Positions 39,001 to 45,000 of a stretch of DNA of 64,000 bases are shown here, in pieces. Position 1 is the first letter of the stretch. Every line of letters begins with the position of its first letter. Source of the DNA: Ophelia neglecta (Eukaryota); assembly GCA_965285935.1 (NCBI GenBank), contig OZ260661.1, positions 82,708,001-82,772,000 on the forward strand, written 5' to 3'. Position numbers: made by a program.

Positions 39001-42000
39001 TATGGAAGAAAATGATGTGATCAGTAACCTGAATAATCAGAGCTTCGACAAGCGGGCAGAAGTATTGGAACAACTGAGGACTGCAGCTCGTAGAAATGGA
39101 GGTAGGCTTCCTTTCCCAGATCAACGCTCTATTTTTAATGGACTGTGTTCGTCACTCAATGACAGCAACTGGGACGTAAGGCACCAATGCATTCAGTTGA
39201 TACATGAGCTAATACCACAATTTGGGGAGGACTTGGATGAATGCATGTCAATAGTGTTGGAGCATTTAATTCCAAACATAGGAGACACTAAAATTACTGT
39301 TCGAAGAGCAGTGATACAAACCATACATGTTTATATGAAATATACATCGGACATTCATGGATTGTTTAAAGCAATTGTGTGGTATGGTCTGGAAAACCGC
39401 AATTCGCGAATCAAGAAGGAAATGGTAATATCATTGCCGATGGTTTTCACGCCAGAATTTTCTCAAGAGAATATGTTTGATATTACGCAAGCTTTAGCTA
39501 AGCGTCTACTGGAGAGTGATGGAGAGACAGGTAACGGCCTACAACAACATGCCCTCCTGTCATTGGAGAAGATCAGAAATCTGGTGGGGGATTCAACATT
39601 CAAAAGTTACTTGCAGAAGCTCTCCACCCCCCTGAGAAAATACTATTATCAGGTATCGGAGCATCAAGAAGAAATTAATTCAGAAAATAACAATAAGACC
39701 AGTTCAAAGCACAGTGCGTACAGCACACATTCTTCCCATTCCAATGGTCATATACGAGCTTTTGAGCCCTACCCAGATCCTCCACAACCTCAACCAAGAT
39801 CCAAGGAAACCATGATTCATTCAACAAACAATCTTGAGTTTGGAGTTGTTCCTGGTCATATCATGGACAAACTCAATGACCAGAGTAATTTCCGAGCCAG
39901 AGCACAGGGAGTGGAAGAGCTTAAACTGATTATTAAAGATCTTGACGATATAAGTGTGTTACATCCACAAATCTTGAACTTTATCAGTTTTCTTAATAAT
40001 CTGCTTGATGACTCAAACTTTAAAATTACTACAGTGACCCTAGAAATACTGGGAATACTAGTATCAAAGTTAAGCTTCAATGTACAGGATCATTTAAAAC
40101 CACTGGTTTTGGCATTATGTAAGCGGATGGGTGACAACAAAATAGTTGTCAGACAGGCCATAATGAAAGTAGCCATCCAGCTCATGCAGATCCTGTCTCC
40201 GAAAGAAGTACTGTCTGTCATTTGTGACAACCTATCCCATCGGAACTCTCGAGTTCGACAGGAGACACTGAACATAGTCATACGCTCCCTTCTTACTTTC
40301 CCAAGCTATGAATTTGATCTTGGAGAGCTATGCCAGAAAATTGCGCATACACTTATTGACCCCAAGAGGCAAGTGAGGCAGGCATCTTTAGAGTGTTTTT
40401 CTGTGTTGGCTCAGGCTATGGGAGCAGGCAAATTACAGCCGCTGGTACAGGCAGTAGACAGTGTAGAACTCAGTTATGATGGCGATGGAGTGATGGCTGC
40501 TGTGCAGTCCCGACTTGCTCGACGTCAGCTACCTCGGGTGAATGCTGACGGGCTCATTGATTACGCCACCCCAATACCGTCGTCAGCAGCATCAAGTCGA
40601 GGTTCTGTCCCTGCTGGTGCTGACATTGATTGGATCCTGCTGGCCTCTGGAAGCTCTGGATCAAGTGCACGCTCTGCTCGCTCTGATATGGAGCTTGAGA
40701 GTATAGCTTCAGGGTCGGCTAGATCCACCCCAGTACATATACCCGAGAGTCCTGCTCATACCCCGAGGAATAGTGGTAGACACCTGGCATCAGCTTCTAG
40801 GCGCTCAAAACTGCCTTGGGATGACAATGAGTTCAATCAGGTAAGAACTGAATAATTACTTTCAATTAGTTACATACTGTATATATTTCTGTTCCAAACA
40901 AGGAATTTAAACTTATATGATTTTCATAGATAAATTTAAAGCCAATCAAACATGTATTTTTGGTTCTTCGTCCATCGAGTTTCAAACAAAAATAGATATA
41001 TCTTTGAAAAAGATTTTTCTATCTGGAAATAAGATTTACATCAATATTTATTTTGCAGTCAAGCTTGTACACAAAACTTTTTTGTTTATGACGGTCGCAC
41101 CTAATATTACTCTTCTTCTGCTATGAACACGGTGATGGCGCACTTCTATCTAATACTGTAAGACATGAAATTTCTGTGCGCATGTCATTTTTGCCTTTCA
41201 ATTAATCAGTTGTATTGCGAGGATACTAGTAACCTGCCGCGAAAAACTGTGGACGCTTTTGTGCAATTTTCTGATGCTGCAGAAAGTTCATGTTTTACAT
41301 TCTGAATAATTACCAATATAAGCTTCTTTTGTGTCACAGTGTGCTGTCTATTGTGTATAAATCTCTGCACTTCCTCTTCTGTAGATATTACCACCACTTT
41401 CTGCATGTTAACAAGCTGTTCTTCCTGCCTCTCCTCTAGAACTTGTCCCCAAGACCGCTTTTGCACAGAAATACATATGAAGTAAAAGCCAAGCCACTAA
41501 AAGGTAGCAAACAGCCACTTTCTTACTTGGAAAAATGGAAGAGGCAGAGGCACCCAATCAAGAGTACTGAATCAAAGGTGCTGGCTACTAAGGCTCGCAG
41601 GAGCATCCTTGATTTGAGTTTTGGTGGTGAACAGGCAAAATTAAATTCCAGCATTGAAAACAGCCTGTGTGAAGAAGACGTTCCATCCTCACCACCAGAG
41701 AGTTCAAGGAGACTTTCACCACCCCCCTTGTCACATGACTCAGACAGAGAGATGGAGCGTCCACCATTACATGCTTCTGCAGATACAGCAGACTTGAGAT
41801 GTTTGATTAAACTTAAACATAATGACTTTAAACAAGATGTATTAATTAATCCAGGTGTCAGTTCTCCTACTCAAGATGATATGCCAGAGTACTCCCATTA
41901 TCCATCTGAGGTAGACCAAAAATATGTAGAAAAAAAACGGTCTCCAGCTTTTACTGGCAAAATGGACCTAATTACTGGTAATTTTCCACGCAAAGATGAA

Positions 42001-45000
42001 CCTTCCAGTTTAACACCAATACCAAAGACCGTCACACCTTTGAGTGGGTCCTCTTCGCGAAGTACAGCACTATCTCACTATGATACTTCAGGTGGGTGTT
42101 CAGACTGTAGTGGTACTCCCATGACAGATGAGTCGGTATCGACGAGTATATCTAATGCACTAGCACCTTTGTCACCTGCTATTCTTACCAGATCAAGATT
42201 ATCTCCTCTAGTCTCCCCCTTGAAATCAGCTGCCATTTCTCCAAATCAACCAGCCCATTTACCTCTTGTAAGATCACCAGGGGAAACAACTAGAATGCAT
42301 CTACAGCCAATGAATATGAAAAAACCACCAAGTCTACTGACTCCAAAGTCTCCAACCAAAAACACTCAATCCACATTGAGCTCTATAGAATGCATGGTGG
42401 ATGATGAACAGACTGCACCAGAGGCTTTGAAAATAAATAATTCTGTAGTGGTCTCAGCTAGAGGATCAACAGAATGCAATCAGAGTCCTTTAGGTAGGAT
42501 TGAAGAATTATCCGATCCACCTTCTGGGGATAAGCCTGAGCTATTATCAAAGGAACATTTCCAGGCAAAAGGTAAAATGAATTTCCCAATGAAGGCAAAA
42601 GCAGCTGAAATGTCTGAAGTAAAACACAAACTCCTGGTTGATGAAAACTCTGACTCTTCCAATAGATCTGCAATGTCTGAGACAATGATACCACCGCAGG
42701 CAGAGACTTGTGACCTTCAAACACCAGCAGTGGTCTGTAAACAGTCTAGTGTAAGAAGCTCAAACAAAAGGGTAACACCTACCAAAATGGCTCAAGCAAA
42801 AACATTTTCTGAAATAGGTCAAGAAAATAATGCAGTTTCTAGTAGCCCTTCTCCAATATCAACGAGGGAAACCGACACAAAGAAGGACAAAAGAAAATTG
42901 GCCTGCCATGAGGATAAAACCAAACAAAAAATGCAAAACAGAACTAAAAAAATTAAAATTGGCAATAAAATGTCACAAGATAAATCTTCCTTGACTACCA
43001 TTGGTCAAGAATTCAGTAACATGCCTGATTCATGCAATCAGAGTATAAAGCTCCCTAAAATTGGCCGAAATTTGTCCCGAAATTCGGATGATTTATCCAC
43101 AATATCTCAGAGTGATACATCTGGAAATGAACTGGTGAATACGTCTGCAGTTATGTCAGATAGGAAAGAAGGCGTTCGTTTCTCATTACCTGAACCACAG
43201 TCTGTACGACATGCTTTGGTTTCACCTGTGGAGCATACGACATCCACATCTCTAGAGGTAGCATCAAATTCTAGGAGATTCCCACTTTCCCCTGAAGAAA
43301 GCCCAGGCTCCCCTCATCTTAAAGAAACAAAAGAGAGTCCCTCTTCAAGCAAGATATGTGGGCAGTCCTCATTTGGACCATACTTGAAAGCTAGACTATA
43401 TAAGCAGTGTCCCCCAAACACAGATTCATTGGTTACTTTAATGGTTGGGAGGCCTTCAGCTTTCTCCAGAACATCTCTAGAAGACAGCCTAGACAACTGG
43501 GATGATGAGGCGGACTCACTGGGAAATCTGCCAGCTGAAGGTGTTGAGTCTGTCTCTGTTAAACCTGCTGTCTGTCTAGAACCTTGCTCTGCTGTGGTAA
43601 GCCGTAGGATAAGGAGCAATTAGCAAATAAGTTTTGTTACATTTTTGTTGTTTCATGGAAAAAGTGACAAGAATGTCCATAATAAAACTGGCCATATTGA
43701 AAAAAGTAGTAGCCCAATTTTTTTACCATGAACATTTACCTGTAAATTCAAGTGTTTTTAATCAAAGGAAATAGCTGCAGTCCCAATTGCCTCTGCAGTT
43801 TAAAGGTTACAATTTAAAGCTGTGAATAAGTCCCATGAATAAGGCTTAGATATGTAGATGAGATAATAGGCTAGAGACTGAAGAGAGCCTATGCTGTAGA
43901 TAAAATACTATGAGCCTTATCTTCTAATGTCATGAAAAAAACCCATATATATGTAATATTATGGATTATCAAATGTATCATCAAGTTGTTGGATTTTGGA
44001 CCAGCTTAAAGATATGCACTGATTGTTTGCTTTCATATCAACACAGTTACTAATAAACAGGGCCTCAAAGTAGACCTGTTGTCAGAGAGAGGGCACTTTT
44101 ATGTTTATCTAGAGGTAAAATTAAAAGTATGTACTTGGAGAAGTCATGAATTATTCTGTTACCATAAAGTGTAAATGATTTAAATAAGGAGGAGGAAAAA
44201 GGCCTAGAAAAACATGCATATTTAGTATATATATACATGTATGTGTGTTTTATACAAAGGTACATGTTCACAATATCTAATAACAGACGGAGGCTATTAC
44301 ATGTAGAAGCGTAGGTGGGCTGAATGGTGACTGAGGCATTTCAGAATAAATTCTTCATCAGAATCTGTGAATTTAGCCACTGGCCTTTAGATCTATTAAA
44401 TTTATTTGTAAAACACAGTACATATATTTGATGAAACAGTACATATAGGCGCAGAAGCTGCTAACTTGATGCTGATGGCAGCAGCAACTGAAATGTATTA
44501 AATGGCTGACCACATCGGCGAAGCTGGAACTCGGCAATCATACTTGTCTTCCCATACCTGTTAATTCCTCCCTACTCCTCCATACCCATGTCTGTCCTTA
44601 ATTTACCTAGCTTTACCTGTGCTCTCCTCTGTCTTTTTCCACACCAGGTGATAATCTTGTTAAGCAAAGACCTCTGTTATAAATGAGTCTTTTGATTCCT
44701 GCTTAAGGTAATATACACAATGCAGTGTGATCAATAACAGTTGGCTTGTGCAATTTGTTTTCATGGCCTGCATTCTGCATACTAGAAAACTGGTATGTGT
44801 GTTGTTATAAATTTATATTTTGCCCAATCTGCTCCACAAATAACTGTTACTGGTGAGGAGATTATGGCTGGTGCCCCACAAGGAGATTTCTGCTGGAATA
44901 CTCCTCCCCTCCCTCCTTCAGTACTATTTCTGCTTTTCATATTTAATCCAGCTCTTTTGCGGATCATGTTACCAAATACTTGGCTAATATCTGTATGCAA

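What the first reader, a model, noticed from the sequence alone, without database searches (positions are those of the whole stretch)
41440..43690. 2.16-kb giant, frame-preserving exon in TOGARAM1 with a built-in terminal-exon option
Seen: 719 uninterrupted codons between a strong phase-0 acceptor (41439) and a phase-0 donor (43596), so skipping keeps the frame. If the donor is ignored the frame stops 8 codons later (43621) and AATAAA follows at 43681. The product is low-complexity with many SP/TP sites and an LPKI motif. Inference: the locus can make a normal protein, a form ~720 aa longer between TOG2 and the C-terminal half, or a TOG1-2-only protein. With the acylated C-terminal isoform this would split crescerin into separately expressed halves. 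Giant disordered exons are known in other cytoskeletal genes such as ankyrins, but I do not know of one here.
Basis: partly seen in the sequence, partly recalled or inferred. Interest (0 to 1): 0.7.

Follow-up and report, generated by a model that had tools for sequence, protein, structure and literature searches.

The report
Large disordered linker exon of TOGARAM1
This is a real 2.16-kb coding exon that adds about 719 unstructured amino acids to the flexible middle of a cilium microtubule regulator, and it is most likely an ordinary, always-included exon.

Summary
Window 41440-43596 (+) is 719 stop-free codons between a very strong acceptor and a GTAAGC donor. It is in phase 0 with TOGARAM1 exon 1 (38930-40840, TOG1+TOG2) and with the next small exon (45682-45745). 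The frame cannot be chance (P about 2e-21), and its codon usage is coding-like along its whole length. The sequence is unique, with no repeats, no Pfam family and no PDB relative. AlphaFold2 gives pLDDT below 50 for 719 of 719 residues. The product is Ser/Pro-rich, has two basic patches and carries 25 [ST]P sites.

My reading is that this exon encodes most of the disordered central linker of crescerin-1. Published mouse data place a small, frame-shifting second coding exon right after a 684-aa exon 1. So this exon is extra relative to the mammalian gene plan. It raises the in-window linker from about 450 aa to about 1170 aa.

Nothing shows that the exon is skipped. Its acceptor is the strongest of the nine modelled exons. 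The "terminal-exon option" is weak: 9 of 9 modelled donors meet a stop within 0-22 codons, and the AATAAA context is mixed. Interest is low to moderate.

The parts
38930..40840 (+). TOGARAM1 first coding exon (637 codons): TOG1, TOG2 and the first ~65 aa of the linker. Donor CAG|gtaaga, phase 0.
   Evidence: Pfam HEAT, CLASP_N, CEP104-like_TOG and XMAP215_CLASP_TOG. PDB 5dn7 (mouse FAM179B TOG2) at E 2.8e-77, query residues 298-572. Junction read.
40841..41439 (+). Intron 1, 599 nt. One YTNAY branch-point-like site at -32, followed by a 16-of-17 pyrimidine tract and TAG acceptor.
41440..43596 (+). The large exon: 2157 nt, 719 codons, phase 0 at both ends. It encodes a disordered Ser/Pro-rich linker segment.
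   Evidence: ORF. Coding potential +0.149 bits/codon in frame 0, against -0.20 and -0.40 in the other two frames and -0.38 +/- 0.07 (maximum -0.22) in 72 intron chunks. pLDDT below 50 for 719 of 719 residues. No Pfam family at E<=0.01. No PDB hit at E<=1. No repeats.
41440..41619 (+). Basic patch 1 (exon residues 1-60, net charge +11).
   Evidence: Charge profile.
42790..43059 (+). Basic, Lys-rich patch 2 (exon residues 451-540; 60-residue windows with net +8 and +10). The single LPKI lies at residues 538-541.
43597..43623 (+). Start of intron 2 (donor gtaagc). If read through, it gives 8 codons and then TAG at 43621-43623.
43681..43686 (+). AATAAA hexamer 60 nt after the read-through stop. 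A possible but unproven poly(A) signal.
   Evidence: It has a T-run downstream (7 of 72 AATAAA sites have one). It has no upstream TGTA (28 of 72 have one) and no GT-rich 10-mer (32 of 72 have one).
45682..45745 (+). Next small linker exon (64 nt, phase 0 in, 1 base over). Probable counterpart of the small frame-shifting second coding exon of mouse.
   Evidence: The mouse comparison is an inference from the passage read.
50678..50746 (+). Small linker exon (69 nt).
   Evidence: Phase-consistent chain.
52037..52191 (+). Small linker exon (155 nt; an alternative donor at 52110 is also phase 0).
52451..52635 (+). Small linker exon (185 nt).
53079..53356 (+). Small linker exon (278 nt), basic (pI 9.9).
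57966..58147 (+). Small linker exon (182 nt).
63479..63698 (+). Small linker exon (220 nt), rich in E, R and K. TOG3 and TOG4 must lie beyond the window end.

Best explanation
Window 41440-43596 is a genuine internal coding exon of the TOGARAM1 (crescerin-1, FAM179B) orthologue of a non-human, non-mammalian animal. It is spliced between the first coding exon (TOG1-TOG2) and a series of small linker exons, most likely constitutively.

It encodes 719 aa of intrinsically disordered, Ser/Pro-rich, slightly basic chain, which forms the bulk of the central linker joining the TOG1-2 pair to the TOG3-4 pair. Relative to the mammalian gene plan it is an extra exon in intron 1. It takes the in-window linker from about 450 aa to about 1170 aa.

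Inferred function (not shown here):
- It lengthens the flexible tether between the two TOG pairs.
- Its two Lys/Arg-rich patches add microtubule-lattice affinity, as published for the mouse and human linker.
- Its 25 [ST]P sites offer proline-directed phosphorylation control.

Shown here: the exon anatomy, the phases, the coding signature, the predicted disorder, and the absence of any known domain. Inferred: constitutive inclusion, and the function.
For: Gene identity: exon 1 matches mouse FAM179B TOG2 at E 2.8e-77 and carries TOG/HEAT Pfam families.

Exon anatomy:
- The ORF opens exactly at a 16-of-17 pyrimidine acceptor and closes 8 codons after a gtaagc donor.
- It is in phase with both neighbours.
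- The whole chain of nine exons is phase-consistent.

Coding signature:
- Frame 0 scores +0.149 bits/codon and is positive in all 7 of 7 300-nt windows. This includes the first 300 nt, which lie before the first in-frame ATG at codon 105.
- P(open by chance) is 2.2e-21.
- 4.5% of point substitutions would create a stop. A neutral frame stays open in only 0.9% of simulations at 5% divergence. Yet CpG o/e in the exon is 0.26, as depleted as the gene body around it. The sequence is therefore old, and the frame is kept open by selection.

Disorder and composition: pLDDT is below 50 for 719 of 719 residues with no secondary structure (single sequence). Composition is S 15.6%, P 9.2%, aromatics 3.1%.

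Intron 1 position matches mouse:
- Query residue 572 aligns to chain residue 288 of the mouse 332-620 construct.
- That places this exon-1 end (637) near mouse residue 680.
- The mouse first coding exon ends at 684.

Published linker properties (passages read):
- It is long and poorly conserved between fish and human.
- Its length varies between species.
- It binds microtubules, the CEP104 zinc finger and RPGRIP1L.
Against: - No RNA evidence of any kind was available, so inclusion level is inferred from splice-site strength and intron length only.
- The exon is a multiple of three with phase 0 on both sides, which is what a cassette exon needs.
- The mouse gene plan has no such exon after exon 1, so a form without it is clearly functional in other animals.
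- The donor is only average (6 of 9 consensus positions).
- Homology of the 719 aa to any other TOGARAM1 linker could not be tested.
- The exon as a whole is only weakly basic (pI 8.65, net +8), so the microtubule-binding role is a weak inference.
- The AlphaFold run used no alignment, which lowers confidence by itself.
Confidence: 0.6

Rival explanations
1. Regulated cassette exon. The exon is included in some tissues and skipped in others, as with the giant exons of ankyrins. That would give a short-linker and a long-linker crescerin from one gene.
For: - Length is 2157 nt (3 x 719) with phase 0 at both ends, and exon 1 and the exon at 45682 join in frame.
- The mammalian plan lacks the exon, so the skipped form resembles a known functional protein.
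- Mammalian TOGARAM1 does have alternative splicing in this gene: two human isoforms of 195.6 and 189.4 kDa and a 150-nt mouse cassette exon.
Against: - The exon has the strongest acceptor of the nine (16 of 17 pyrimidines, against 11 of 17 at the competing acceptor 45682) and a short 599-nt upstream intron.
- A length that is a multiple of three is expected one time in three by chance.
- No RNA data were available.
- 0 papers hold TOGARAM1 together with 'giant exon' or 'large exon'.
Confidence: 0.22
2. Composite terminal exon. In some transcripts the donor at 43596 is ignored, translation ends at 43621, and the RNA is cleaved after the AATAAA at 43681. The product would be a protein of TOG1-TOG2 plus this linker segment, without TOG3-4.
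For: - The stop comes 8 codons after the donor, and AATAAA lies 60 nt after the stop. That is the closest hexamer among the 9 modelled donors; seven others have theirs 149-787 nt after the stop and one has none before the window end.
- A T-run lies 36 nt downstream of the hexamer. Only 7 of 72 + strand AATAAA sites have one.
Against: - The stop is generic: 9 of 9 donors meet one within 0-22 codons, and 41% of random intron positions meet one within 8 codons or fewer.
- A hexamer within about 66 nt is expected about 12% of the time (from the counts).
- The site lacks an upstream TGTA (28 of 72 sites have one) and a GT-rich 10-mer (32 of 72 have one).
- The donor has gtaag.
- The features were picked after looking.
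Confidence: 0.1
3. A separate intronless gene, or a captured mobile-element ORF, nested in TOGARAM1 intron 1. It would start at the first ATG (codon 105, 41752) and end at 43621, with its own poly(A) signal.
For: The ORF has its own stop and a nearby AATAAA. It has no recognisable relation to TOG proteins.
Against: - The frame is open and coding-like for 104 codons before the first ATG. The first 300-nt window scores +0.23 bits/codon, the highest of seven.
- The frame starts exactly at a strong acceptor and is in phase with both neighbours.
- There is no CpG-island-like peak before it (0.60-0.67, against 0.83-1.34 at the TOGARAM1 start).
- No transposon or other Pfam domain matches even at E<=10, apart from one hit at 13.4 bits against a 33.7-bit cut-off.
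- There is no second copy and no repeat in the window.
Confidence: 0.04

Closest known systems
Central linker of mammalian TOGARAM1 / crescerin-1 (mouse residues ~577-1230)
   Same: Same gene and same position, between TOG2 and TOG3. It is long, predicted unstructured, Ser/Pro-rich and partly basic. The published linker binds microtubules, the CEP104 zinc finger and RPGRIP1L, and is poorly conserved between fish and human (passages read).
   Different: In mouse the first coding exon (684 aa) is followed by a small frame-shifting exon, and human exons 4-7 encode only part of the linker. So, by inference from those passages, the mammalian linker is built from many small exons. Here one 2157-nt exon precedes a similar series of seven small exons (1153 nt in the window) and roughly doubles the linker. 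Sequence homology to the mammalian linker was not testable.
Large constitutive exons encoding disordered regions (e.g. BRCA1 exon 11; recalled)
   Same: A single internal exon of more than 2 kb encoding an unstructured, Ser-rich region. The Atlas ranked BRCA1 exon-11-type fragments as the nearest look-alikes by language-model features (0.84 and 0.81).
   Different: Scores below 0.9 are only leads. This is a resemblance of composition, not kinship, and no BRCT_assoc or other Pfam match was found.
Giant alternative exons of ankyrin-B / ankyrin-G
   Same: A very large frame-preserving internal exon, encoding an extended disordered insert in a cytoskeletal adaptor.
   Different: For the ankyrins, tissue-specific inclusion has been demonstrated. 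Here there are no expression data, and the splice sites favour plain inclusion.
Basic disordered linkers of XMAP215/ch-TOG and CLASP
   Same: Inter-TOG disordered regions with positive patches that recruit the protein to the microtubule lattice (discussion passage read).
   Different: Those are different gene families. Here the charge is concentrated in two patches while the exon overall is near neutral (net +8 over 719 aa). Binding was not tested.

Membership tests
TOGARAM1 / crescerin-1 gene (the exon as part of it) | N-terminal TOG pair with TOG2 similar to FAM179B TOG2 | tested here: met
   PDB 5dn7 'Protein FAM179B' at E 2.8e-77 over query residues 298-572. The next-best hits are CLASP TOGs at about 4e-10. 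Pfam TOG/HEAT families also match.
TOGARAM1 / crescerin-1 gene (the exon as part of it) | C-terminal TOG3-TOG4 pair after a long linker | not testable with these tools
   All seven modelled exons after the large exon, up to 63698, are linker-like with no Pfam family (five of the seven were scanned, the two shortest were not). TOG3-4 must lie beyond base 64000.
TOGARAM1 / crescerin-1 gene (the exon as part of it) | Exon joined in frame to the flanking TOGARAM1 exons | tested here: met
   Phase 0 at 40840, 41440, 43596 and 45682, within a phase-consistent chain of nine exons. Splicing itself was not observed.
TOGARAM1 / crescerin-1 gene (the exon as part of it) | Sequence homology of the exon to the linker of other TOGARAM1 proteins | not testable with these tools
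PDB holds only the TOG2 domain. The Atlas gave no TOGARAM1 cluster for the exon.
Alternative giant cassette exon (ankyrin type) | Very large internal exon, frame-preserving, encoding disordered sequence | tested here: met
   2157 nt = 3 x 719, phase 0 at both ends. pLDDT below 50 throughout.
Alternative giant cassette exon (ankyrin type) | Both inclusion and skipping observed, with tissue specificity | not testable with these tools
   No transcript data. Splice-site strength (16 of 17 pyrimidines) argues for default inclusion.
Composite terminal exon / intronic polyadenylation | In-frame stop soon after the unused donor, followed by a poly(A) signal with supporting elements | tested here: inconclusive
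   Stop after 8 codons, and AATAAA 60 nt later with a T-run. But 9 of 9 donors have early stops, a hexamer that close is about 12% likely by chance, and the site has no TGTA and no GT-rich element.
Composite terminal exon / intronic polyadenylation | Mapped 3' ends | not testable with these tools
   No 3'-end data.
EB-binding SxIP proteins | [ST]-x-[IL]-P motifs above chance in a basic Ser/Pro-rich context | tested here: not met
   2 matches (residues 192 and 415) against 1.70 +/- 1.25 in 2000 shuffles; a fraction 0.52 of shuffles reach 2. LPKI is not an SxIP motif.
Transposon or other known protein family | Match to a known domain, or extra copies of the sequence | tested here: not met
   0 Pfam families at E<=0.01. 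Only one sub-threshold hit at E<=10. 0 PDB hits at E<=1. No repeats, and no second copy in the window.

The most novel reading that the evidence does not exclude
The exon is a regulated switch: a 719-aa cassette that is included or skipped by tissue, for example in motile-ciliated cells or testis versus cells with primary cilia. Inclusion would double the tether between the two TOG pairs. Its donor is occasionally bypassed to give a TOG1-2-plus-linker protein that lacks the lattice-binding TOG3-4 pair. That would make linker length, or the uncoupling of the two TOG pairs, a tunable property of the ciliary-tip module in this lineage.
Probability: 0.2. Interest if true: 0.5.

Novelty: new member of a known kind. 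Interest (0 to 1): 0.22.

Why it matters
TOGARAM1 is a Joubert-syndrome gene. Its central linker is the part that binds the microtubule lattice, CEP104 and RPGRIP1L, yet it is the least conserved and least understood part of the protein.

A lineage in which one exon roughly doubles that linker is a natural experiment. It bears on how much tether length and how many basic or phospho-sites the ciliary-tip module tolerates. It also gives a clean single-exon handle for deletion experiments.

If the exon is simply constitutive, as I think most likely, this is a routine annotation point. Variable linker length in the crescerin family has been noted in print since 2015.

Tried and rejected
- Pfam on the exon: 0 families at E<=0.01. 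At E<=10 there was one hit, TPR_TRIP12_N, at 13.4 bits against a 33.7-bit cut-off. I reject it as noise.
- PDB sequence search on the exon: 0 hits at E<=1.
- ESM Atlas on the exon: best scores 0.84/0.81/0.81 (BRCA1 fragments, TICRR). All are below the 0.9 level the tool calls a lead only, and recognition was 900, so I read them as compositional look-alikes.
- ESM Atlas on exon 1: generic TOG clusters only, with no information on linker length.
- Repeat searches: direct, inverted and tandem repeats, a self-BLASTP, and a tblastn of the exon against the rest of the window. The only result was one E=5 hit inside a kelch exon.
- Rfam (gathering threshold) and tRNA scans of the window: 0 and 0.
- SxIP, KEN and [ST]Px[KR] motif counts are at chance. 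An R..L excess (9 against 3.1 expected) was seen but not interpreted.
- Literature: the hits were seen as listings. Passages were read in seven papers. None describes a large TOGARAM1 exon. There were 0 papers for 'TOGARAM1' with 'giant exon' or 'large exon', and one search added nothing.
- Organism: I tried to infer it from composition. CpG o/e is 0.36 and TpG+CpA o/e is 1.28, which indicates a heavily methylated genome, but no taxon could be assigned.

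
Full report
**What is there**

On the + strand a stop-to-stop frame runs from 41440 to 43623, 727 codons.
- It opens at the acceptor tgttcttcctgcctctcctctag|AAC. The acceptor AG is the end of an in-frame TAG.
- After 719 codons comes GTG|gtaagc at 43596/43597.
- Read through, the frame stops 8 codons later at 43621-43623, and an AATAAA lies at 43681.
- The window has no N.

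Every coordinate in the finding is therefore correct.

The open frame is far beyond chance. Stop triplets make up 6.33% of intron trinucleotides here, which gives P = 2.2e-21 for 727 open codons.

**Which gene**

The 637-codon frame at 38930-40840 carries HEAT/TOG Pfam families. It matches the crystal-structure sequence of mouse FAM179B (crescerin-1) TOG2, PDB 5dn7, at E 2.8e-77 over residues 298-572. CLASP TOG domains follow only at about 4e-10. The gene is therefore the TOGARAM1 orthologue.

By my own count, 42 of the first 103 aligned positions printed are identical to mouse. I do not take the contig for human or mammalian. The species could not be named.

The window is strongly CpG-depleted (o/e 0.36; TpG+CpA o/e 1.28). 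It has a CpG-rich peak (0.83-1.34) at 38000-39000, just before the TOGARAM1 start.

**Gene model, exon by exon**

Exon 1 ends CAG|gtaaga at 40840 after whole codons. The large exon is phase 0 at both ends. The next acceptor, at 45682, is phase 0.

Downstream I could chain seven small exons whose phases all fit:

| Exon | Length |
|---|---|
| 45682-45745 | 64 nt |
| 50678-50746 | 69 nt |
| 52037-52191 | 155 nt |
| 52451-52635 | 185 nt |
| 53079-53356 | 278 nt |
| 57966-58147 | 182 nt |
| 63479-63698 | 220 nt |

They total 1153 nt. Each encodes Ser-, Pro- or charge-rich sequence. Five of the seven were scanned and gave no Pfam family; the two shortest were below the tool's size limit and were not scanned. 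TOG3 and TOG4 must therefore lie beyond base 64000.

I did not build or search a joined protein, so no statement here rests on a spliced sequence.

**Is the large exon coding?**

I built a codon table from three other genes of the window (1228 codons, with TOGARAM1 excluded) and compared it with intron trinucleotides.
- The exon scores +0.149 bits/codon in frame 0.
- It scores -0.20 and -0.40 in the other two sense frames, and at most +0.007 on the reverse strand.
- Exon 1 scores +0.242.
- 72 intron chunks of the same length average -0.383 +/- 0.070, with a maximum of -0.219.
- All 7 of 7 300-nt windows along the exon are positive in frame 0.
- The first window is the highest (+0.23), and it lies before the first in-frame ATG (codon 105). 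Translation therefore enters from upstream rather than from an internal start.

The frame is also maintained by selection.
- 4.5% of possible point substitutions (293 of 6471) would create a stop.
- In simulation a neutral copy stays open in 15% of runs at 2% divergence and in 0.9% at 5%.
- The exon's CpG o/e is 0.26, as decayed as the surrounding gene body (intron 2 is 0.17). The sequence has therefore resided here for a long time while staying open.

I conclude that the exon is translated in at least some transcripts.

**What it encodes**

- Composition: S 15.6%, P 9.2%, K 8.1%, aromatics 3.1%, pI 8.65, net charge +8.
- Two basic patches: residues 1-60 (net +11) and residues 451-540 (60-residue windows with net +8 and +10).
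- [ST]P sites: 25 against 14.7 expected (a fraction 0.002 of shuffles reach 25).
- SxIP-type motifs are at chance, and LPKI occurs once.
- AlphaFold2 without an alignment gives pLDDT below 50 for 719 of 719 residues and no secondary structure. This fits disorder, with the caveat that single-sequence runs are weak.
- There is no Pfam family and no PDB relative. There are no repeats and no second copy in the window.
- The Atlas returns only look-alikes below 0.9, and these are long disordered chordate fragments such as BRCA1 exon 11.

**Comparison with the known gene**

From passages read in the papers:
- Mouse crescerin-1 has two TOG pairs joined by a long central linker, and linker lengths vary across the family (PMC4642858).
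- The linker adds microtubule-lattice binding (PMC4642858; PMC12170345).
- It binds the CEP104 zinc finger and RPGRIP1L (bioRxiv 10.1101/817213).
- It is poorly conserved between zebrafish and human.
- Human exons 4-7 encode only a portion of it.
- In mouse, a 542-bp deletion removes the second coding exon and shifts the frame after 684 aa (bioRxiv 10.64898/2026.04.13.717734).
- Known mammalian splice variation is small: two human isoforms of 195.6 and 189.4 kDa and a 150-nt mouse exon (PMC10946425).

Intron 1 appears to sit at the same place in both species.
- The mouse TOG2 construct covers residues 332-620.
- This window's residue 572 aligns to chain position 288.
- That places this exon-1 end (637) near mouse residue 680, close to the mouse boundary at 684. 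This step assumes four tag residues and no indels.

The natural counterpart of the small frame-shifting mouse exon is the 64-nt exon at 45682. The 2157-nt exon is therefore extra relative to the mammalian plan. With it, the in-window linker is about 65 + 719 + 384 aa. Without it, the linker is about 450 aa.

**Splicing pattern**

Nothing here measures it. On sequence alone:
- The large exon has the best acceptor of the nine exons: 16 of 17 pyrimidines, against 11-14 of 17 for the seven downstream exons and 11 of 17 at 45682.
- A branch-like site lies at -32, and the upstream intron is short at 599 nt.
- The donor is average, at 6 of 9 consensus positions (all).

Default inclusion is therefore the simplest expectation. 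The cassette reading stays open, because the frame allows skipping and because mammals do without this exon.

**The terminal-exon option**

- Early stops after a donor are universal here: 9 of 9 donors meet one within 0-22 codons, and 41% of random intron positions meet one within 8 codons or fewer.
- The AATAAA 60 nt after the stop is the closest among the nine donors. It has a downstream T-run, which 7 of 72 sites have.
- It lacks an upstream TGTA (28 of 72 sites have one) and a GT-rich element (32 of 72 have one).
- From the hexamer counts, a hexamer that close is expected about 12% of the time.

I rate this option as possible but unsupported.

**Left unchecked**

The remaining collections hold no animal genomes.
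- Supplements were closed. Supplemental Table S1 of PMC4642858 (family members) and Supplemental Figure 5A of 10.1101/817213 (zebrafish gene model) may bear on linker length and exon structure in non-mammals.
- Automated annotation of this species may already include the exon; I could not look.

**Verdict**

This is a real exon, most likely a constitutive and lineage-specific enlargement of the known, variable and disordered TOGARAM1 linker. It is of modest interest unless RNA data show regulated skipping or premature termination.

Noticed in passing
window 60489-60515 (+): A short ORF start, ATG GGG GCA GGC TGT ACA AAA TGT CAG followed by gtaacc, which translates to MGAGCTKCQ. It ends in phase 0, like the acceptor of the exon at 63479. 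The N-terminal Met-Gly plus Cys pattern resembles myristoyl/palmitoyl signals (recalled, not tested).
   Followed up: partly
window 47434-48849: A 34-nt minisatellite of 41.7 copies with 90% matches, inside the intron between the exons at 45745 and 50678.
   Followed up: no
window 32832-35878 (-): A BTB-BACK-Kelch gene (Pfam BTB 6e-31, BACK 4e-28, Kelch_1 on two further exons). It lies head-to-head with TOGARAM1, with a CpG-rich stretch at 38000-39000 between them. The same neighbour arrangement (KLHL28) is what I recall for human, but I did not test that.
   Followed up: partly
window 3490-5310 (+); 11652-12968 (-); about 15200-31000 (+): Other genes in the window. There is a single-exon TMEM151 family gene (E 1e-164), a leucine-rich-repeat gene (LRR_6), and a multi-exon RPAP1 gene (TPR_RPAP1 E 9e-40 on the 27352-27666 exon). 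That makes five genes in 64 kb, a compact region.
   Followed up: partly
window 36221-36502 (-) and 36845-37532: A 93-aa open frame with no Pfam match. From memory it resembles the tail of a non-LTR retrotransposon ORF. Next to it are several 31-36-nt G-rich tandem repeats, all in the KLHL-TOGARAM1 intergenic region.
   Followed up: no
window 63479-63698 (+): The last modelled linker exon is 52% Glu/Arg/Lys (E 20.5%, R 17.8%, K 13.7%, no aromatics). It looks like a single charged helix or coiled-coil segment inside the linker. It has no Pfam family above threshold.
   Followed up: no
window 41440-43596 (+), protein residues 5-677: R..L four-residue patterns occur 9 times against 3.1 expected from shuffles; a fraction 0.002 of shuffles reach 9. 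No interpretation was attempted.
   Followed up: no
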